NCBI GenBank assembly: GCA_038999215.1
Contig: JAWABM010000003.1
Coordinates: 1 to 46,169 of the forward strand
DNA length: 46,169 nucleotides
Direction: 5' to 3'
Source: Candidatus Aenigmatarchaeota archaeon
GTDB lineage: Archaea; Aenigmatarchaeota; Aenigmatarchaeia; Aenigmatarchaeales; JACQIB01
A program made the translations under genes and the position numbers. Under the pieces are notes generated by a model. That model had not been told where the DNA came from and made no database searches. It saw only the letters and a list, made by a program, of their open reading frames with translations. Of this stretch, positions 1 to 30,698 are shown one piece after another; the stretch's first letter is position 1, and each line of letters begins with the position of its first letter.

Positions 1-479
1 AGGCCCGCCTGTTGAGCGAGGCGCGCCGTGCTGGCGTGCCGACGCCCGCCATCCTCGAGGTCGACGAGAAGAACTTCAAAATCGTGATGTCATTCATTGA
101 CGGCGTGCGGCTGAAGGAGCTGATAAACGAAGGGTGCGATCTGAGGGAGATTGGCACTGAAGTTGGTAATGATATAGGAAAGCTCCATGCCGCCGGCATA
201 GTGCACGGCGACCTTACCACGAGCAACATGATACAGAAAGGCGCTGAGTTGTTCTTCATAGATTTCGGCCTCGGCTTCTTCTCGAACAGGCCTGAAGACC
301 AGGCTGTCGACTTGGCAGTCCTTCGCGAAGCGATAAGGTCGACGCATTTCAGGCATTCAAATGCGCTTTGGGGCTATATAGTCCAGGGTTACAAGGATGC
401 TTTCGGCGGCGCCGAAAAGGTTTTAAAGTCTTTGGACAATATAGAGAAGCGTGGCAGATATGTCAGAAGGGACGACTGA
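1..479 (+). CDS. bud32: KEOPS complex kinase Bud32 (5' partial)
   Basis: Kinase motifs IVHGDLTTSN and FIDFGLG, C-terminal RGRY tail; frame open to the window start. Confidence 0.93.
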   Translation, partial: ARLLSEARRAGVPTPAILEVDEKNFKIVMSFIDGVRLKELINEGCDLREIGTEVGNDIGKLHAAGIVHGDLTTSNMIQKGAELFFIDFGLGFFSNRPEDQAVDLAVLREAIRSTHFRHSNALWGYIVQGYKDAFGGAEKVLKSLDNIEKRGRYVRRDD

Positions 480-483
480 GGTC

Positions 484-756
484 ATGCAAAAGAACGAAAG
501 GAAATTCGTGAAGTGGCTGAAAGGCGATGACAGGGTGAGCCGCTGGGAAAACGTGAGCTATGCTATCATGTTCGCGGCTGCTGGCCTCATTTTCATCGGC
601 CTTCTTCTTGGGAGCTTCGTGAAATACGTCGTTTATGCGGGAGCTTTCGGCGCGTTCCTTCTGCTGGCCGGCATAGGGGTTTATATAGCTTCCCAATTAA
701 TTGAAAACAAGACTGGCTCGGTCTCGGCTGGACCAGATCATTCGGTGAAAGCTTAA
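484..756 (+). CDS. Small hypothetical membrane protein (2 TM)
   Basis: ATG 484 just after the bud32 stop; two hydrophobic segments; stop overlaps the rps15 ATG (TAATG). Confidence 0.7.
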
Positions 757-1214
757 TGGCGCGAATATATGCTAGGAAGAGGGGCAAGGCATCCAGCAAG
801 AAGCCTCCTGTGCCTGCGCAATGGGTGACTTATTCTGGAGAGGAAGTCGAGCGGCTGATTGTGAAGCTCTACAAGGACGGCCTGCAGTCCGCGCAGGTGG
901 GCCTGATGCTCAGGGACCATTACGGCATCCCGTCTATAAAGGCCGTGACCGGGAAAACGGTCGGCGAGATTCTTGCCGAGAACGGCCTGGCTCCGAAGAT
1001 ACCGGAGGACCTCTTCAACCTGCTGAAAAGGGCCGTGCGCCTGCGCGCGCATTTGGAGAAGAACAAGAGGGACGCGCACTCCATACGCGGCCTGGAACTC
1101 ATGGAATCAAAGATACGCAGGCTGGTGAAGTACTATGCCAGGACAGGCAGGCTGCCCGAGGACTGGAGGTACGACGCCGAGAGGGCAAAGCTCATAGTGG
1201 AGAAGGGTGAATGA
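756..1214 (+). CDS. rps15: 30S ribosomal protein uS15
   Basis: [14 protein letters not shown]..., [24 protein letters not shown]. Confidence 0.98.
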
Positions 1215-25744: not shown

Positions 25745-27094
25745 TCACATGAAGTCGTCCAGACAGCAGCCCTTCCTGTCGAATTCGTCCAGTTTGGTGC
25801 CTCTCGTTGTCCCTATTTGTATCCCCCTGTTCTCAGAAGGCCCTCCTTTGAGGCCTGTCACTGCTTCGACGTCAAGATTGAGTATCCTTTCGAGCGCCGG
25901 ACCTGCCATATTATAGAAATAGAATTCCCTGTCCACTTTGCTGAAGTCCATTTTCGGGTCAGCCATCAGCCTGAACCTCGTGTTTCCGCTGACGAACTCC
26001 CTCCTCTCCGAAGGGCTCGTTTCGGCCCTGTTTTCAAGCTGCAGGCAGCCTGCGACATATATGCCGAGTTCCCTGAATTTCGGCTTCTTCATGACGCCCT
26101 CCGCCACGAGCCTGTCCAAAGCGAAGCCTGCGGCCTTCCTTATGTTGGTGTCCGCCCTGTCCATGTCGCCGTAGGTCTCGCTTTCCCTCGTAAGGACCGT
26201 GCAGACTATGAAATCCTCGCCTTTCATCTGCTCCACGCTCCTGCGGGCATCAAGCACGTAAGCTTTACTTGCCTCGGTCTTCGGTTCGGCCTCACTGAAC
26301 CTCAGCATCAGCGCCCCGTCTATTATGTCGTTTATCTTCCAGGGCCACAGTTTCGTCGTTGTCTTTATGCCGGCTGTGAACACGCTCCCGTTCCAAAGGT
26401 AGGCATAGCTCTTGCTGTCCAGGCCAAGAACCTTCATCTTGCTGTAAATCGTTTCGCCCACGTATTCCGGCCACTCCTCCCTTAACCCGTCCATGTCCTC
26501 GGCAAACACCTTGGTTAGCTCGAATATGTTCGCATCCGCCTTATCGACGAATTTCGCCCACTCCTTTTTCAGCAGCTCGTGCTCGGCCTTTGCCACGTAC
26601 TTGACGAACCAGTTGGTCGAGGGCGATGGTGTTCTCAGCAGCCTCGCTGTCGCGTTCCTCGCTTCAGTCGGGCACTCCTCGAGATAGCGCTTGAATATTC
26701 CGTCCTCCTCGAAGCAGAACCAGACTTTGTCCCTGTAAATGCCCTTCGTGTCTTTGTCCTTTATCTCTATATCTATCGTGGACCGTTCTGCGCAACTGCT
26801 GTGATGGCACTTGAACGTGCCGGGCGATATGTTGTATTTCCTTACGGTTGCCGGCTCGATGTATAGCTGCGCAACATCGACCTCGTACTGCCCTAGCTTC
26901 TTGACGTATCTGAAATTCTTCGTGTCCTGTGATGGGCTCAGGCTGTCCTTTGAAAAGCATTCTTGATCCTTGAACGAGTTCGGCACCCCCGGTATGACGT
27001 TGTTTTTCAGGCACCATCTATTGAAAAGTTTCGCGGCCAGAACCGTGTCAGGGCTGTTCTCGATGAACCTCGGCGGAAGGTATATCTCTGCCAT
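25745..27094 (-). CDS. Highly diverged family-B DNA polymerase, palm/thumb half with truncated fingers
   Basis: By-eye colinearity with archaeal PolB: DVAQLY...YNISPGT (motif A), WFCFEEDGIF, VFAEDMDG (motif C), SKSYAY...TAGI, VDREFYFYNMAGPALERIL; C-terminal LDDF. Confidence 0.78.
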   Translation of the reverse strand: MAEIYLPPRFIENSPDTVLAAKLFNRWCLKNNVIPGVPNSFKDQECFSKDSLSPSQDTKNFRYVKKLGQYEVDVAQLYIEPATVRKYNISPGTFKCHHSSCAERSTIDIEIKDKDTKGIYRDKVWFCFEEDGIFKRYLEECPTEARNATARLLRTPSPSTNWFVKYVAKAEHELLKKEWAKFVDKADANIFELTKVFAEDMDGLREEWPEYVGETIYSKMKVLGLDSKSYAYLWNGSVFTAGIKTTTKLWPWKINDIIDGALMLRFSEAEPKTEASKAYVLDARRSVEQMKGEDFIVCTVLTRESETYGDMDRADTNIRKAAGFALDRLVAEGVMKKPKFRELGIYVAGCLQLENRAETSPSERREFVSGNTRFRLMADPKMDFSKVDREFYFYNMAGPALERILNLDVEAVTGLKGGPSENRGIQIGTTRGTKLDEFDRKGCCLDDFM

Positions 27095-28516
27095 TCAACC
27101 ACCGAAGAAGTCTCCGCTTGTCTTCGAAGGGACGGTTATTTTCTTGGCTATCTTGTTCGTGGAAATGACGTCGTTTCTGTTGTGGATTATGGCGCCGGGA
27201 TACTCGTCCGCGTCCTCGAACACCTTCCATATCTGGAGACCGCGCAGCTCAGTCTCCCTTTCTGGCTCCAGCCCCAGCAGGGCTTCTATGTTCCCGAGCC
27301 TTTTGGGCATCATCTGCAGCTCGAGTATTCTCTTCTTGTTCACTTCCCTGTAGATGTCGTGGTTCCATGTGAACGGCATCACCAGCTCGACCCCGAACTC
27401 CGTCGGCCTGAAGGAGATGTCATATCCCCCCTTCTCCTTCCACCTTATCTCCATGCTCTTGAGCCGGACGAATTCCGCCTTGCCTAATGAAGATGCCGCC
27501 AGCTCTTCCTTCTGGCTTTCCCACGAGATTTTCCAGTCCTCGTTGATGGTCGCCGTCTCCCTGTACATTTCCCTCTGGTCGTAGCTCTTGTTGTTGTAGC
27601 CCGCGAAGACGTCGCACCACTCGGTGAAGTCCTTTTGCAGGTCCTTGCCTATCCTCCTGTACATGTCCCTGATGTCCTCGCAGCAGATGACCGTTTTCTT
27701 CAGGTCGAACCTTTCCACGTCGCCGGCGTATTTCTCGTTTTCATCTATGTGCCTTTTTTTGAACTCTTTCGCGTCGGTCTTTTCATCGGCATAGATGTAG
27801 CATCTGAGCACGCTCTTGCCGTGCGTGCCGCTTCCAGGAGTCGGAACCCATCCTGCCATTGAGAATGTCGCGGTGCGCCAGTCCTTCACATCGCTCTCTA
27901 TGTCGAAGGCCATTATGCCTATGTTCCTGTTCTTTTTTCCCGTGTATTCCTTGCTTATTATGTCCATGATTGGGCTGCCGTCTGGTGTGGAGCCAATCTG
28001 CTCGCCAGAAGAGACATCGTATTCGCCCTGCCATATCATTTCTTCGTCCTCATAAAAGGCCTCCTCTAGCGAGCGCTTGTCAACGCCGTCGGGTATCACG
28101 CTCACGAAGCTCTTCTTGCTGACCTTTCGTTCCCTTATCTCATTGAGCAGGGCGTTTCTGTCCGAATGGTTCTCGAGAACGACGGATATTCCTATGTTGC
28201 TTGTCCTGAAGTACTGCATCACGCCGTTCTTCCAGTAAGGTCTCTCCGTGTCCTTTCCGTAGGCCGCATCCATTATTTTCGGCGGCTCCTTGAAGATTAT
28301 GCTGTCGCCGTTCTTCCTTGCCAGGCCGCTGACCAGCAGCCTTTGATAATAGTCCGCCTCGTTCTGATTGGCGATGACTATCTCTGCCGGATGCCATCCG
28401 CTGTAGCTCCCGAAGTGCAGCCGACCTGTGGCGCTGTCCCTGAAGCAGAGCGTGACCCTGTCTTTGCTCTCTTCCGCCACGCCCAAAAAGTAGCCCTTGA
28501 ACGCCGCGGCTTCCAT
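27095..28516 (-). CDS. Family-B DNA polymerase N-terminal domain + 3'-5' exonuclease half
   Basis: ExoI MAFDIES, ExoII FAGYNNKSYD, HDIY, ExoIII HNRND; PolB-like NTD; ends where the pol domain would begin. Confidence 0.82.
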   Translation of the reverse strand: MEAAAFKGYFLGVAEESKDRVTLCFRDSATGRLHFGSYSGWHPAEIVIANQNEADYYQRLLVSGLARKNGDSIIFKEPPKIMDAAYGKDTERPYWKNGVMQYFRTSNIGISVVLENHSDRNALLNEIRERKVSKKSFVSVIPDGVDKRSLEEAFYEDEEMIWQGEYDVSSGEQIGSTPDGSPIMDIISKEYTGKKNRNIGIMAFDIESDVKDWRTATFSMAGWVPTPGSGTHGKSVLRCYIYADEKTDAKEFKKRHIDENEKYAGDVERFDLKKTVICCEDIRDMYRRIGKDLQKDFTEWCDVFAGYNNKSYDQREMYRETATINEDWKISWESQKEELAASSLGKAEFVRLKSMEIRWKEKGGYDISFRPTEFGVELVMPFTWNHDIYREVNKKRILELQMMPKRLGNIEALLGLEPERETELRGLQIWKVFEDADEYPGAIIHNRNDVISTNKIAKKITVPSKTSGDFFGG

Positions 28517-28532
28517 AAGACTGCTTGAAACT

Positions 28533-28550
28533 AAAAGGATTTATCCTTTT
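28533..28550. promoter_or_regulatory. Inverted repeat in the 51-bp divergent intergenic region (shared promoter/operator)
   Basis: AAAAGGAT-TT-ATCCTTTT centred between the two divergent start codons. Confidence 0.55.
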
Positions 28551-28567
28551 TTTGTCTGAATTAGGGG

Positions 28568-30568
28568 GTGAACTATTTCAAACTCAGGCCGCACATGGCA
28601 GGCTGGGCCACCAGCAGCGTCATGGCAATCATGCCTTCCGAAATGCTTATGCCCGAAGACACCTCTTTCCTCGGCTACAGGAGCGGCAGGAGGATACGGG
28701 AAATTGAGGGATATGTAAAGGCATTCGAGGAGAAGGTGGCCAAAAAGTGCAGGGATCTCAGGGCGCCGATAAGGGAGGACGTGAAGAAATATCATGCTGC
28801 GCTCAATGACCTGGAGAAGGCCGAAGTGGTCCTGCTGACGACCACGGACACCGTCAGCTCGCGCCCGCCTTACAACCTTACCAGGCTGGCCGCGGAGCAT
28901 CCTGCCAATCTTTCCACCAAGATATATTCCGACCTTCTCTTCGAGTTCGAGCAGAACACCGGGAAGGCCGCCTATCTTGCCGTGATTGATCCGCCTTATC
29001 TGCCGGCAGTCGTCGGCGCGAACGGCGAGATTGCTTTCGGGCCTGACAAATTTTACATCCCGCACCAGTTCACCAAATGGCACGACTTGGACGGGCAGAA
29101 AGAGCGGCTGGAATACGGCCAAGAGAGGGCCGAAGTTTACGAGAAGGAGATAAGGGGGCTTTACCCTGAATTCGAACCCTCCTTCAGGGCCAGGCAATGG
29201 GACAAGGATATGGAAAGCAACTTGCTCAAGGCACTGGAAGCCGTAGCAGCTGAGATGATTTCGCAGTTCATCGTGGACAAATGCGAAGGCAACCTTTATG
29301 TGCTCATGCCGGGTAGCGGCGCACAGAAAGGCATAAAGGAAAAGGTGATCGCGTCGGTGCTGGAGAGGAAGCCGCGAATAATGATGAAGCCGCACATAGC
29401 AGATGTCTTCGAATCGCTGAACCGCGACGCTTATGAGAAGGATCTCACATGCTCCAAGTCCGTATACAACCGCGTCGCCGCGCTGCTCAGCAACACGTAT
29501 GTTTACAAGCACGAACGCTATGATTTCCCGTATTCTAAGATGGACAAGGTCAACATCAACAGGAATGCAAGGCCCTGCCCTGACGGCTTCATCTATTCCG
29601 AGTGGGCGCCGGGCCCGGGCGAGTGTTGCATGCACAAGGACAGGCCCAAGCTCTGCCTGCAGCACCAGTTCAGGAAGATCCTCGAAGGTTATGAGAACAG
29701 GGAAATGATCAAGGCCTACATGACAGGCAATGATGTCGTTGTCGGCGGCGTGACCTTGAGAGGCAGGCGCATACATGTACCTAGCATCCACACAGTGCTC
29801 AAGGAGCTGAATCGCGACCTCCGCGAGGACCTGAAACCGCTGAGGCTCCCTGACATGAGGGTCGGGAGGGAGCAGGCAGATTGCAGCTGTTCCGAGATAG
29901 CCGGAGCGATGGACGCTGCCGAGTTTCACCTGAAGAAGATGGGCGCTCTCAAGACGCAGCCCTGGCTGGCGTTTCTGGCGGATGTGGGCAACGTCTGCCA
30001 TGAAACCATGTTCGCCAGCGCCCCGCCCGCTTGGAGGCAGGCCATGGAAAAGCCAGGTATTATGGAGTACCAGACAGAGGAGGGCTCGATGACAATACAT
30101 TTCAAGCCGGATCTTGCGGCATTTTACTCCGAGAAAGATGACGTTCTCGTCGTGATAGATGCCAAATCCGGCGTCGCCCCTTTCACGACTTGGCTGCCCA
30201 AGAAGAGCCATAGCACGCAGCTCGGAGGCTACACATGGTACTTGCACAAGGTATTTGAAGGTGAAAGAGGGTTCGGCGACTCTTACGGTGTGATACAGTA
30301 TCTGCAGGATTATCAGACGGAGGAGCCGAGAGCGATAAGGATAAGCACAGGCAGGGATAGTAGCGCAATGAAGGTGTTCCACCACAAGACCAGAGAATTT
30401 GCCAGGTTGCACAGGCTCTGGACCGATGAGCCCGGGCAGTTTCTTGAGGACTACTACGCCAAGCCGTATTACTACAAGAAGCATCTGAAATCCGGGCCCA
30501 GAGGCGCAGCCTGCATCGAAGCGGTCGAAAGCATGAAGAAGCAGCCGACGCTCGGCTCGTTCAGCTAG
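28568..30568 (+). CDS. Large protein with C-terminal PD-(D/E)XK (Cas4/RecB-like) nuclease domain and PIP-like box
   Basis: SCSEI...GNVCHE...FKPD...VVIDAKSG...HSTQLGGY; ends KKQPTLGSFS; N-terminal ~430 aa unassigned. Confidence 0.75.
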   Translation: MNYFKLRPHMAGWATSSVMAIMPSEMLMPEDTSFLGYRSGRRIREIEGYVKAFEEKVAKKCRDLRAPIREDVKKYHAALNDLEKAEVVLLTTTDTVSSRPPYNLTRLAAEHPANLSTKIYSDLLFEFEQNTGKAAYLAVIDPPYLPAVVGANGEIAFGPDKFYIPHQFTKWHDLDGQKERLEYGQERAEVYEKEIRGLYPEFEPSFRARQWDKDMESNLLKALEAVAAEMISQFIVDKCEGNLYVLMPGSGAQKGIKEKVIASVLERKPRIMMKPHIADVFESLNRDAYEKDLTCSKSVYNRVAALLSNTYVYKHERYDFPYSKMDKVNINRNARPCPDGFIYSEWAPGPGECCMHKDRPKLCLQHQFRKILEGYENREMIKAYMTGNDVVVGGVTLRGRRIHVPSIHTVLKELNRDLREDLKPLRLPDMRVGREQADCSCSEIAGAMDAAEFHLKKMGALKTQPWLAFLADVGNVCHETMFASAPPAWRQAMEKPGIMEYQTEEGSMTIHFKPDLAAFYSEKDDVLVVIDAKSGVAPFTTWLPKKSHSTQLGGYTWYLHKVFEGERGFGDSYGVIQYLQDYQTEEPRAIRISTGRDSSAMKVFHHKTREFARLHRLWTDEPGQFLEDYYAKPYYYKKHLKSGPRGAACIEAVESMKKQPTLGSFS

Positions 30569-30613: not shown

Positions 30614-30698
30614 TGGCGCCGAGAGGGAGATTCGAACTCCCGAACCCCGAAGGGCACCAGCTTTCCAGGCTGGCGCAATACCGCTATGCGATCTCGGC
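30614..30698 (-). tRNA. tRNA-Ser(GGA), intronless, CCA encoded
   Basis: GCCGAGA acceptor, CCAGC-CU-GGA-AA-GCUGG, long variable arm, G73. Confidence 0.96.

What the first reader, a model, noticed from the sequence alone, without database searches (positions are those of the whole stretch)
25745..30568. Three-gene module: split, highly diverged family-B DNA polymerase paired with a Cas4/RecB-like nuclease, with PCNA-binding-like tails
Seen: two adjacent minus-strand ORFs read in order as the two halves of an archaeal PolB (473 aa: NTD + ExoI/II/III; 449 aa: motif A, motif C, thumb up to the PALERIL helix). A 666-aa PD-(D/E)XK protein lies head-to-head only 51 bp away. The nuclease ends in QPTLGSF and the pol half in LDEF...LDDF, resembling the PIP box Qxx[LIM]xxF[FY]. 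Known: archaea carry aberrant PolB2 paralogues and a few split PolBs, and casposons link PolB with Cas1/Cas4. I know no described system with a split at the exo/pol boundary plus a divergent PIP-bearing nuclease and no Cas1/integrase. Inference: a clamp-associated repair, mutagenesis or anti-viral DNA-processing complex resident between the str and S10 operons.
Basis: partly seen in the sequence, partly recalled or inferred. Interest (0 to 1): 0.92.

Follow-up and report, generated by a model that had tools for sequence, protein, structure and literature searches.

The report
Split pseudo-polymerase paired with nuclease
A tiny-genome archaeon carries a rare, conserved gene pair: a two-piece, very diverged relative of a DNA-copying enzyme that seems to keep only its DNA-trimming site, next to a second DNA-cutting protein. 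It is a new, untested variant of a well-known enzyme family.

Summary
The 473-aa and 449-aa ORFs are the two halves of a family-B DNA polymerase (PolB) homologue. A family-only profile matches canonical PolBs (hhalign E 5e-35). An AlphaFold model of the read-through superposes end to end on archaeal PolBs (VIA Z 21.6). The halves lie in one frame, separated by a single genuine TGA stop followed directly by ATG.

Exo I-III are conserved in every member, but motif B is deleted, and motifs A and C have lost their aspartates in the window's protein.

The 666-aa partner ends in a Cas4/RecB-like PD-(D/E)XK domain, after about 460 aa of unknown fold. A head-to-head nuclease gene is present in all 5 split-type lineages with context. 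Fused forms also exist, and the fission point varies.

The family is rare: 4 of 371 genomes of the phylum and 17 representatives among 1.84 billion proteins. It is under purifying selection. It sits at a variable site beside rpl3.

PIP tails are canonical in 3 of 12 members and degenerate in the window.

Best reading: an accessory two-nuclease DNA-end-processing complex, not a polymerase. This is a new variant of a known kind.

The parts
27095..28516 (-). Gene for the N-terminal-domain plus 3'-5' exonuclease half of the PolB-like protein (473 aa; TGA stop at 27095-27097). It carries Exo I FDIESD, Exo II YNNKSYD and Exo III HNRND.
   Evidence: ORF. PolB fold over model residues 9-470. Exo motifs are conserved in 10 of 10, 11 of 11 and 10 of 10 family members.
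27092..27097 (-). Fission point: an in-frame TGA stop directly abutting the ATG of the second half, with GGTGG just upstream. This layout suggests termination-reinitiation coupling.
   Evidence: Sequence. TGA also ends rpl2, rpl23, rpl4 and rpl3 in the window, so it is a real stop. The model's pLDDT is under 50 at residues 465-472, consistent with a linker. A contig of run X1 covers 26881-27231 with no differences, but it may come from the same sample.
25745..27094 (-). Gene for the palm/fingers/thumb half (449 aa). It has the PolB fold but a degenerate active site: Gln at the motif A Asp column, motif B deleted, motif C ELT.
   Evidence: hhalign columns. MAFFT motif tables anchored on 4 canonical PolBs. 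VIA alignment runs to model residue 888.
25748..25771 (-). C-terminal tail GCCLDDFM. It is PIP-box-like, lacking the Gln, at the end of a stretch modelled as disordered.
   Evidence: pLDDT under 50 for residues 890-923. Family tails are listed: canonical QxxLxx[WY][LY] in 3 of 12.
28517..28567 (.). 51-bp divergent intergenic region. A near-palindromic A/T-rich element, GGATTTATCC (28537-28546), lies about 25 nt from either start codon. I infer a shared bidirectional TATA-type promoter giving short-leader or leaderless transcripts.
   Evidence: Sequence. The promoter reading is inference from recalled archaeal promoter geometry and was not tested.
28568..29950 (+). N-terminal ~460 aa of the 666-aa protein. 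It has a predicted alpha/beta region of unassigned fold, invariant LTTxDT, HPxN and (V/L)DPPY motifs, and several invariant Cys.
   Evidence: Alignments A4 and A6. No family or PDB sequence match. AF2 model is poor, pLDDT 57.5. Only generic Rossmann-like matches, Z 7.6 or lower.
29975..30568 (+). C-terminal Cas4/RecB-like PD-(D/E)XK nuclease domain (CHE, H..PD, DAK, QLGGY) and the tail QPTLGSFS.
   Evidence: Invariant C477, H478, E479, H511, P514, D515, D531, K533, Q551 and Y555. Homologues hit PF12705 at 27.2, 21.9 and 21.9 bits, and Cas4 models in PADLOC and NCBIfam. Weak fold hits: Cas4-family ACE1 at E 5e-3, and Cas4 chain 7mi4_A at Z 7.5 for model 485..616.

Best explanation
The locus encodes an accessory DNA-end-processing machine built from two nucleases.

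The 473-aa and 449-aa products reassemble into a PolB-shaped heterodimer. The exonuclease half keeps a complete DEDD(h) 3'-5' exonuclease centre. The palm/fingers/thumb half has lost the dNTP-binding motif B and, in this organism, two of the three catalytic carboxylates. It therefore acts as a DNA-holding pseudo-polymerase that presents a 3' end to the exonuclease rather than extending it.

The divergently co-transcribed 666-aa protein supplies a Cas4/RecB-type PD-(D/E)XK nuclease, presumably acting on the 5' strand or on flaps, plus an uncharacterised N-terminal module.

Flexible C-terminal PIP-like tails probably tether the proteins to PCNA.

Shown here: homology, fold, motif states, gene linkage, purifying selection. 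Inferred: heterodimer formation, loss of synthesis, joint action of the two proteins, PCNA tethering. The physiological role (specialised repair or degradation of foreign DNA) is unresolved.
For: - PolB homology and fold.
- Exo I, II and III are conserved in 10 of 10, 11 of 11 and 10 of 10 members. At the second motif C Asp column only 4 of 11 keep Asp. At the motif A Asp column none of 10 keeps Asp (6 have Glu). Motif B YG is deleted in all 10 members that cover the region.
- A nuclease gene lies head-to-head in all 5 split-type lineages with context.
- The fused G031 form has a 272-aa Cas4-like gene two genes away (PADLOC Cas4, E 2.4e-5).
- Purifying selection on all three genes: G250 against L050 shows 21 synonymous and 4 non-synonymous differences, pN/pS about 0.05.
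- The stop-ATG abutment, or 14- and 23-nt overlaps in relatives, fits translational coupling.
- Canonical PIP tails in L049, G250 and P0021. The nuclease tail QPTLGSFS resembles the tails of canonical PolBs of relatives (KQQKLGSF, KQTGLGSWS).
- PCNA is encoded in the genome.
- An RFC-large-subunit-like gene sits beside the nuclease in L049 and G250.
Against: - No activity was measured.
- 'Inactive by sequence' has been wrong before. PolB2/Dpo2 was predicted dead but works as a translesion extender (abstract of PMC8764526, seen in the listing; passages of PMC4104785).
- Some family members keep Glu/Asp at all three carboxylate columns (L049 and G250: E, D-x-D), so the ancestor may synthesise DNA.
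- The nuclease's own sequence misses Pfam thresholds and its model is poor.
- The window's two tails are non-canonical, and the nuclease tail is kept in only 2 of 6 homologues.
- The genome already has NurA, Rad50 and another PD-(D/E)XK protein, so the module does not fill an obvious repair gap.
Confidence: 0.55

Rival explanations
1. It is still a working, non-canonical DNA polymerase, for example a translesion or error-prone extender like PolB2/Dpo2. The nuclease prepares or trims its substrates.
For: - The first acidic residue of motif C is kept in 11 of 11 members.
- A Glu sits at the motif A column in 6 of 10.
- L049 and G250 keep D-x-D in motif C.
- The full palm/fingers/thumb fold is retained.
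- There is a precedent of PolB2 being mis-called inactive.
Against: - The motif B Lys/Asn/Tyr-Gly is lost through a 6-residue deletion in all 10 members.
- The window's protein keeps only 1 of 3 carboxylates: Q, E-L-T.
- The pattern is the reverse of PolB2, which loses the exonuclease and keeps synthesis (passages of PMC7544198; PMC12926913).
Confidence: 0.15
2. It is an anti-invader defence module. The dead polymerase senses replicating or free DNA ends of viruses or plasmids, and the two nucleases destroy them. This differs from the best explanation in role rather than in mechanism.
For: - Patchy distribution: true members in 4 of 371 genomes.
- The site beside rpl3 is variable in the family. 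G029 has only a 223-aa gene there. G033 and G034 carry a different PD-(D/E)XK gene plus, in G034, another PolB-like ORF.
- Solo Cas4 in DPANN has been proposed to act in defence (passages of PMC5704561).
- Canonical repair genes are already present.
Against: - No PADLOC hit for the window's three proteins.
- No relatives in viral contigs, so no sign of arms-race exchange.
- Housekeeping neighbours.
- Strong purifying selection.
- PIP-like tails and an RFC neighbour point to the host's own replication forks.
Confidence: 0.2
3. It is a trans-acting proofreader or non-catalytic replisome scaffold, like the inactive C-terminal half of Pol epsilon. It would serve the genome's exonuclease-less PolB paralogue.
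For: - The genome encodes a PolB paralogue that starts just before motif A, keeps motifs A, B and C, and has no exonuclease domain (L002).
- The module keeps exactly the activity that paralogue lacks.
Against: - No linkage or co-occurrence between the two was tested.
- This reading does not explain the obligatory PD-(D/E)XK partner.
- The genome's 886-aa PolB has its own intact exonuclease.
Confidence: 0.07
4. It is a decaying remnant of a mobile element or a pseudogene, broken by a nonsense mutation.
For: - An in-frame stop splits the gene.
- A tRNA-Ser gene lies 46 bp from the nuclease's end.
- The locus is variable.
Against: - Separate halves with the same boundary recur in lineages only 30-37% identical.
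- pN/pS is about 0.05.
- Exonuclease and nuclease motifs are invariant.
- No Cas1, no flanking inverted or direct repeats, no second copy of the tRNA end.
- No viral relatives.
Confidence: 0.03

Closest known systems
Canonical archaeal family-B DNA polymerases (e.g. Thermococcus/Pyrococcus PolB; PolB3/B1 groups)
   Same: - Same fold from the N-terminal domain to the thumb (Z about 20-21.6, about 680 of 757 residues).
- Same Exo I-III motifs.
- The (K/R)YNISP(G/D)T segment after motif A.
- A KxY-region equivalent.
- A C-terminal PIP-type tail in some members.
   Different: - Below all Pfam PolB thresholds.
- Motif B deleted and motif A/C carboxylates decayed.
- Usually encoded as two genes.
- Always next to a PD-(D/E)XK nuclease gene.
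PolB2 / Dpo2 ('inactivated' archaeal PolBs and bacterial G2)
   Same: - A diverged PolB paralogue with substituted catalytic residues.
- Encoded with partner proteins.
- Proposed to act in repair (passages of PMC4104785).
   Different: - PolB2 loses Exo I and Exo III and keeps one motif C Asp (passages of PMC7544198). Here the exonuclease is intact and the polymerase site decays.
- PolB2's partners are arCOG07300 and inactivated RadA, not a Cas4-like nuclease.
Split PolBs of Methanobacteriales and Nanoarchaeum equitans
   Same: A PolB encoded in two pieces.
   Different: - Those are active replicative PolB3 enzymes whose splits are ascribed to inteins (passages of PMC4104785).
- Here no intein domain was found.
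- The cut lies at the exo/pol linker and moves by about 65 residues in one lineage, and fused forms coexist.
Casposons (PolB + Cas1, sometimes a Cas4-like or HNH nuclease)
   Same: Co-occurrence of a PolB-family gene with a Cas4-family nuclease.
   Different: - No Cas1 in the genome.
- No terminal inverted repeats.
- Polymerase motifs are degenerate.
- The context is chromosomal and syntenic across an order.
Solo-Cas4 of DPANN archaea / Cas4-RecB PD-(D/E)XK nucleases
   Same: - D...(D/E)xK and QxxxY motifs.
- Weak profile and fold hits to Cas4, Csa1, ACE1 and AdnAB.
- Occurs without CRISPR.
   Different: - Fused to an unknown ~460-aa N-terminal region.
- The window's protein lacks the three C-terminal Cys seen in the G003 and L049 homologues.
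- PMC5704561 contains neither 'polymerase' nor 'PolB' (0 occurrences of each).
Inactive C-terminal PolB module of eukaryotic Pol epsilon
   Same: A PolB fold kept as a non-synthesising module (passages of PMC7544198).
   Different: [quoted passage not shown]
- Here the exonuclease looks active and the protein stands alone.

Membership tests
Family-B DNA polymerase superfamily (homology/fold) | PolB fold: N-terminal domain, DEDD exonuclease, palm, fingers, thumb in one co-linear arrangement | tested here: met
   AF2 pLDDT 83 from a family-only alignment. Foldseek best E 3e-26. VIA Z 21.6, 682 residues aligned, model 9..888 against chain 1..757. hhalign E 5.3e-35.
Family-B DNA polymerase superfamily (homology/fold) | Exo I (DxE), Exo II (Nx3[FY]D), Exo III (Yx3D) | tested here: met
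   FDIESD, YNNKSYD and HNRND (His in place of Tyr). Conserved in 10 of 10, 11 of 11 and 10 of 10 members.
Family-B DNA polymerase (as an active polymerase; Pfam DNA_pol_B PF00136) | Motif A DxxSLYPS Asp, motif B Kx3NSxYG, motif C DTD; score over the Pfam gathering threshold | tested here: not met
   Window protein: Gln at the motif A Asp column, R...T with YG deleted in motif B, E-L-T in motif C. No PF00136 or PF03104 hit, even at E 10 for the proteins and at E 1 in the genome scan.
PolB2 / Dpo2 group | Exo I not conserved and Exo III missing; operon with arCOG07300 and inactivated RadA | tested here: not met
   Exo I-III are present. The neighbours are rpl3, a Cas4-like nuclease, tRNA-Ser and rps10. 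RadA/arCOG07300 profiles were not run.
Casposon | Cas1 integrase plus PolB, bounded by terminal inverted repeats | tested here: not met
   No Cas1 in the 88%-complete genome. No flanking inverted repeats among 9 short chance-level pairs.
Intein-split PolB | Intein or intein remnants at the split site | tested here: not met
   No intein, Hint or LAGLIDADG hit in either half at E up to 10. The junction is a plain TGA-ATG.
Cas4/RecB-type PD-(D/E)XK nuclease | Core motifs D, (D/E)xK and QxxxY on the restriction-endonuclease-like fold | tested here: met
   D515, D531-A-K533 and Q551...Y555 are invariant in 6 of 6. Homologues hit PF12705 at 27.2, 21.9 and 21.9 bits against a cut-off of 22. The window protein itself is below threshold. 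Fold evidence is weak only.
Cas4/RecB-type PD-(D/E)XK nuclease | Four-Cys Fe-S cluster: one Cys before the core, three after (hallmark recalled from memory) | tested here: not met
   C477 is invariant, but the window's C-terminus has a single Cys (AACIEAV). The G003 and L049 homologues have three.
PCNA-interacting proteins (PIP box Qxx[LIM]xx[FYW][FYWL]) | Canonical PIP box at a flexible terminus | tested here: inconclusive
   Pol half: GCCLDDFM, with no Gln. Nuclease: QPTLGSFS, with Ser as the last aromatic position. Canonical boxes occur in 3 of 12 family tails. The tail is modelled as disordered. Binding was not shown.

The most novel reading that the evidence does not exclude
PolB has been exapted, repeatedly and in mutually almost unrecognisable forms, into a 'pseudo-polymerase/exonuclease' that works with a PD-(D/E)XK nuclease as a new class of two-nuclease system. 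Alternative versions of this pair replace one another at one chromosomal hot spot beside rpl3 in a DPANN family (G000 type, G031 fused type, G033/G034 type). That pattern would fit a diversifying anti-invader or replication-fork surveillance system in which the dead polymerase is the DNA-end sensor.
Probability: 0.25. Interest if true: 0.8.

Novelty: new variant of a known kind. Interest (0 to 1): 0.62.

Why it matters
Known 'inactivated' PolBs (PolB2, the Pol epsilon C-terminal half, poxvirus F12) lose the exonuclease or both activities. A bacterial survey states that proofreading sites are generally less conserved than polymerase sites (passage of PMC12926913). This family shows the reverse pattern: the exonuclease is kept and the synthesis site decays.

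It also has a naturally recurring fission at the exo/pol linker and an obligatory nuclease partner. If the biochemistry bears this out, three things follow:
- A new way in which the PolB scaffold is reused.
- A candidate accessory DNA-processing or defence system in genome-reduced archaea.
- A natural two-piece PolB that could inform polymerase engineering.

The family is invisible to Pfam and NCBIfam, so such genes are currently annotated as hypothetical.

Tried and rejected
- Single-sequence searches gave nothing usable. Pfam, NCBIfam, PHROGs and PDB phmmer were run on the three proteins. The only hit was RNase_H_2 at E 0.025, below its cut-off.
- Word-indexed homologue searches found only 3, 2 and 1 relatives besides the proteins themselves.
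- Stop-codon recoding is rejected. TGA also terminates rpl2, rpl23, rpl4 and rpl3.
- My first by-eye assignment of motif C to 'YAYLWNGS' was wrong. hhalign and MAFFT place that stretch at the KxY region and put motif C at IFELTK.
- Mobile-element reading: no flanking repeats, no second copy of the tRNA-Ser 3' end, no Cas1, no relatives in viral contigs for either gene family.
- 'Replacement for missing end-resection genes' is rejected. NurA, a Rad50 zinc hook and another PD-(D/E)XK protein are present.
- N-terminal region of the 666-aa protein:
  - The A6 profile against PDB sequences found nothing.
  - The Atlas gave no usable feature hit and only TM values of 0.34 or lower.
  - The AF2 model was poor, pLDDT 57.5.
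  - Foldseek found nothing at E 0.001 or better.
  - VIA-wide gave only generic alpha/beta matches, Z 7.6 or lower.
  - A methyltransferase or UDG-like reading of the DPPY and HPxN motifs is recalled resemblance only and is not supported by any search.
- Complex prediction of the genome's PCNA with the last 50 residues of the pol half gave no verdict (score 0.23 against a mark of 0.32). This is not evidence either way.
- Sequencing runs: no RNA holder is listed. One DNA run of a hot-springs metagenome holds part of the locus as short low-depth contigs. One of these spans the junction unchanged, but it may be the source sample.
- hhalign of the G033 and G034 neighbours of rpl3 against the family profiles found no relation.
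- The organism's name could not be obtained. Record titles say only 'uncultured archaeon'.
- No PolB phylogeny was attempted, because divergence is too high and no named references were on hand.
- Literature. Searches found no description of this architecture. I read passages only of PMC7544198, PMC4104785, PMC5704561 and PMC12926913. For PMC8764526 I saw only the start of the abstract. Supplementary tables were closed. Those of PMC7544198 and PMC5704561 might list such proteins.

Full report
**What is there.**
A 51-bp divergent gap separates the 473-aa and 666-aa genes.
- A 647-aa ORF on the opposite strand of the 666-aa gene (28541-30484) is a shadow frame. The homologues conserve the + frame, and the local strand skews turn positive there.
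They are separated only by ...GGT GGT TGA ATG GCA....
- TGA is a genuine stop in this organism. It also ends rpl2, rpl23, rpl4 and rpl3 in the window.
- The genome is small: 571 kb in 24 contigs, 88% complete. The only sequencing run that holds the locus is labelled a hot-springs metagenome.

**Is it a PolB?**
- On their own the proteins match nothing in Pfam, NCBIfam, PHROGs or PDB sequences. The single exception is a sub-threshold RNase_H_2 hit.
- The Pfam PolB model finds two other PolB genes in the genome, but not this locus.
- I read the stop through by reference (TGA=W). This was only to handle both halves as one chain.
- I aligned that chain with the few relatives. A 10-row profile then scanned 1.84 billion representatives.
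  - 17 proteins scored at E 1e-30 or better. These are the family itself: 2 fused forms of 862 and 841 aa, 8 N-terminal parts and 7 C-terminal parts.
  - The next hits begin at E 5e-12. Of 8 of these that I checked, 7 carry both PF00136 and PF03104.
- hhalign of a 20-row family alignment against 12 canonical PolBs gives probability 99.9 and E 5.3e-35 over 608 columns.
- An AlphaFold2 model used the family-only alignment, with no templates and no canonical PolB rows. It reached pLDDT 83 and pTM 0.84.
  - Foldseek's best 50 matches are PolBs, almost all archaeal (best E 3e-26; TM up to 0.60/0.71).
  - VIA-align gives Z 19-21.6 with about 680 of about 757 residues aligned. Model residues 9..888 cover chain residues 1..757.
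- The 449-aa protein therefore has the palm/fingers/thumb fold, and the refutation condition 'no PolB fold' is not met.
- The model's confidence drops below 50 at residues 465-472 (the fission point) and at 890-923 (the tail). Both are as expected for a linker and a flexible terminus.

**State of the active sites.** I anchored the family on four canonical PolBs with MAFFT and checked the result against hhalign.
- Exonuclease motifs are complete.
  - Exo I, DxE: 10 of 10 members.
  - Exo II, Nx3[YFH]D: 11 of 11 members.
  - Exo III, [YH]x3D: 10 of 10 members.
- The polymerase site is degenerate.
  - Motif B: the Lys column holds R, M, K or Q, the Asn column holds T, D, K or Y, and a 6-residue deletion removes the Tyr-Gly in all 10 members that cover the region.
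  - Motif A Asp column: Glu in 6 of 10, and Gln in the window's protein and its closest relative.
  - Motif C DTD: the first position is acidic in 11 of 11, but the second Asp survives in only 4 of 11. The window has E-L-T.
My own first guess for motif C was also wrong.
- The pattern of exonuclease kept and synthesis site lost is the reverse of PolB2 (passages of PMC7544198). It is also the reverse of the general trend described for bacterial polymerases (passage of PMC12926913).

**The split.**
- Separate halves with the same boundary occur in lineages only 30-37% identical to the window. Examples are G003 (404 + 390 aa, 14-nt overlap) and L049 (404 + 434 aa, 14-nt overlap). Several other representatives show the same.
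- G250 and its 99%-identical relative L050 are cut about 65 residues further on, at 508 + 374 aa.
- G031 (same family as the window) and P0015 are fused.
- Fission at or near the exo/pol linker is therefore recurrent and stable, not a lesion.
- Between G250 and L050 the three genes differ by 21 synonymous and 4 non-synonymous changes. By a simple counting script this gives pN/pS of about 0.05.

**The partner.**
- The 666-aa protein has only one relative in the word-indexed search. Four more came from neighbouring loci.
- In the 6-row alignment, C477-H-E, H511..P-D515, D531-A-K533 and Q551...Y555 are invariant. This is the PD-(D/E)XK / QxxxY signature of Cas4/RecB nucleases.
- Three homologues hit PF12705, at 27.2, 21.9 and 21.9 bits against a cut-off of 22. 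Some also hit Cas4/Csa1 models in PADLOC and NCBIfam.
- Fold evidence is weak because the model is poor (pLDDT 57.5). The best Foldseek rows are Cas4-family ACE1 proteins at E 5e-3. VIA-wide gives Cas4 in the Cas4/Cas1/Cas2 complex at Z 7.5 for residues 485..616.
- The first ~460 residues are unassigned. They carry invariant LTTxDT, HPxN and DPPY motifs.

**Linkage and distribution.**
- A nuclease homologue lies head-to-head with the PolB-like genes in all 5 split-type lineages for which I have context.
  - These are G000, G003/L048, G250/L050 and L049.
  - The fifth is the closest relative, whose pol half and nuclease are both recorded on a 46,428-nt contig.
- The fused G031 gene has a 272-aa Cas4-like gene two genes away on the divergent strand.
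- True family members occur in 4 of 371 genomes of the phylum.
  - The single-protein search gave 6 of 371, of which 2 were weak.
  - The profile search gave 118 of 371 at E 1e-3 or better, but only 4 below 1e-100.
  - The remaining profile hits are at 3e-12 or weaker, in frames of about 500-950 aa. I take these to be canonical PolBs but did not check each one.
- In G000, G003 and G031 the module sits beside rpl3. In G000 and G003 it lies between rps10 and rpl3.
- In L049 and G250 it lies elsewhere, next to an RFC-large-subunit-like gene.
- No relatives were found in viral contigs.
- No Cas1, no flanking repeats, and no duplicate of the adjacent tRNA-Ser end were found.

**A variable site.** I looked at the rpl3 neighbourhood in the other five genomes of the family.
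- rpl3 was found in 4 of the 5.
- G029 has only a 223-aa gene between rpl3 and rps10.
- G033 (same genus as the window) and G034 carry a different pair there.
  - One is a 392/391-aa PD-(D/E)XK protein. The G034 copy hits PF12705 at 23.5 bits, and the two are 57% identical to each other.
  - The other is a 287+/421-aa protein.
- G034 also has a divergent 853-aa ORF (P0095) that is unrelated to the family profile.
  - It aligns co-linearly with canonical PolBs: hhalign E 1.1e-4, probability 56%, 448 columns.
  - Its ten nearest Atlas clusters by language-model features are all PolB, with score 0.95.
  - It shows FDIE and YNIED. S-N-R sits where DTD should be.
- This is lead-level evidence that 'exonuclease-competent, synthesis-dead PolB plus PD-(D/E)XK nuclease' exists in several forms that replace one another at one site.

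**Tails.**
- Of 12 family C-termini, 3 are canonical PIP boxes: QSNLIDWL, QSSLNGWL and QRSLEAYY.
- 3 are GxxLDDF[FM], including the window's. The rest are partial or absent.
- The nuclease tail QPTLGSFS resembles the tails of canonical PolBs of relatives (KQQKLGSF, KQTGLGSWS). It is kept in only 2 of 6 nuclease homologues.
- The genome encodes PCNA.
- Clamp tethering is therefore plausible for the family and unproven for this locus.

**How it most likely works.**
- The stop-ATG abutment, with GGTGG just upstream, suggests coupled translation of two subunits that rebuild a PolB-shaped particle.
- With motif B gone and, here, only one of three carboxylates left, the palm/fingers/thumb most likely just grips a primer-template or DNA end. 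It would feed the 3' strand to the intact exonuclease.
- The co-regulated Cas4-like nuclease would cut or resect the other strand. The 51-bp gap, with a near-palindromic A/T-rich element about 25 nt from both starts, suggests this co-regulation. That is my inference.
- The genome already has NurA, Rad50 and another PD-(D/E)XK protein. The module is patchy and sits at a variable site. I therefore regard it as accessory.
- Whether it serves specialised repair at forks or attacks foreign DNA is open.
- The main rival is that it still synthesises DNA, as happened with PolB2.

**Novelty.**
- Five literature searches, and passages from the main surveys of PolB and Cas4 diversity, turned up no description of this architecture. 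Supplementary tables could not be opened.
- I file it as a new variant of a known kind: a PolB-superfamily member by fold and homology, not a member of any described PolB group, and probably not a polymerase.

Noticed in passing
window 30614-30698 (-): tRNA-Ser (GGA) lies between the end of the nuclease gene and rps10, with its 3' end facing the module. No second copy of its 3' part exists in the window. No tRNA lies at the equivalent place in 7 of 8 related loci scanned; the eighth (L058) has a tRNA-Val.
   Followed up: yes
window 28541-30484 (-): A 647-aa ORF runs antisense to the 666-aa gene. It looks like a shadow frame typical of 55% GC DNA. Homologues conserve the + strand frame.
   Followed up: partly
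L002 1465-2916 (-) (own genome, contig C12): A PolB paralogue whose conserved part starts just before motif A. It has intact motifs A (DFRNLYPS), B (KLAANIAYGY) and C (YADTDA) but no N-terminal or exonuclease domain, and no exonuclease gene next to it. It is the mirror image of the module's exonuclease-only state.
   Followed up: partly
L001 1258-3918 (-) (own genome, contig C2): The canonical 886-aa PolB has all motifs and ends in a CxxC...CxxC zinc-ribbon-like extension. This is reminiscent of the Zn-binding C-terminal domains described for a few archaeal PolB groups (passages of PMC7544198).
   Followed up: no
L059 1450-6064 (G034) and L056 2154-4164 (G033): Beside rpl3, relatives carry a different module: a 391/392-aa PD-(D/E)XK protein and a 421-aa protein. 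G034 also has a divergent 853-aa ORF (P0095) that looks like another extremely diverged PolB with a dead motif C. The contig of G033 ends before that position.
   Followed up: partly
L049 1653-2855 (-) and L015 4868-6070 (+): A 400-aa AAA+ protein with an RFC-type lid domain (probable clamp-loader large subunit) lies directly beside the nuclease gene in the L049 and G250 lineages.
   Followed up: partly
L015 488-3116 (G250) and L050: In this lineage the PolB-like gene is cut about 65 residues downstream of the usual point, with a 23-nt overlap in another frame. Its sister L049 is cut at the usual point. The odd cut is kept in a strain 99% identical.
   Followed up: yes
window 28568-29950 (+): The N-terminal ~460 aa of the nuclease protein carry invariant LTTxDT, HPxN, (V/L)DPPY and several invariant Cys (C239, C295, C337, C354, C363). 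No detectable family was found; it may be a new domain.
   Followed up: partly
L013 4691-6862 (G031): Next to the fused PolB-like gene lie a 135-aa ORF, a 272-aa Cas4-like protein with a C-terminal Cys cluster, and an overlapping 343-aa ORF with no family hit.
   Followed up: partly
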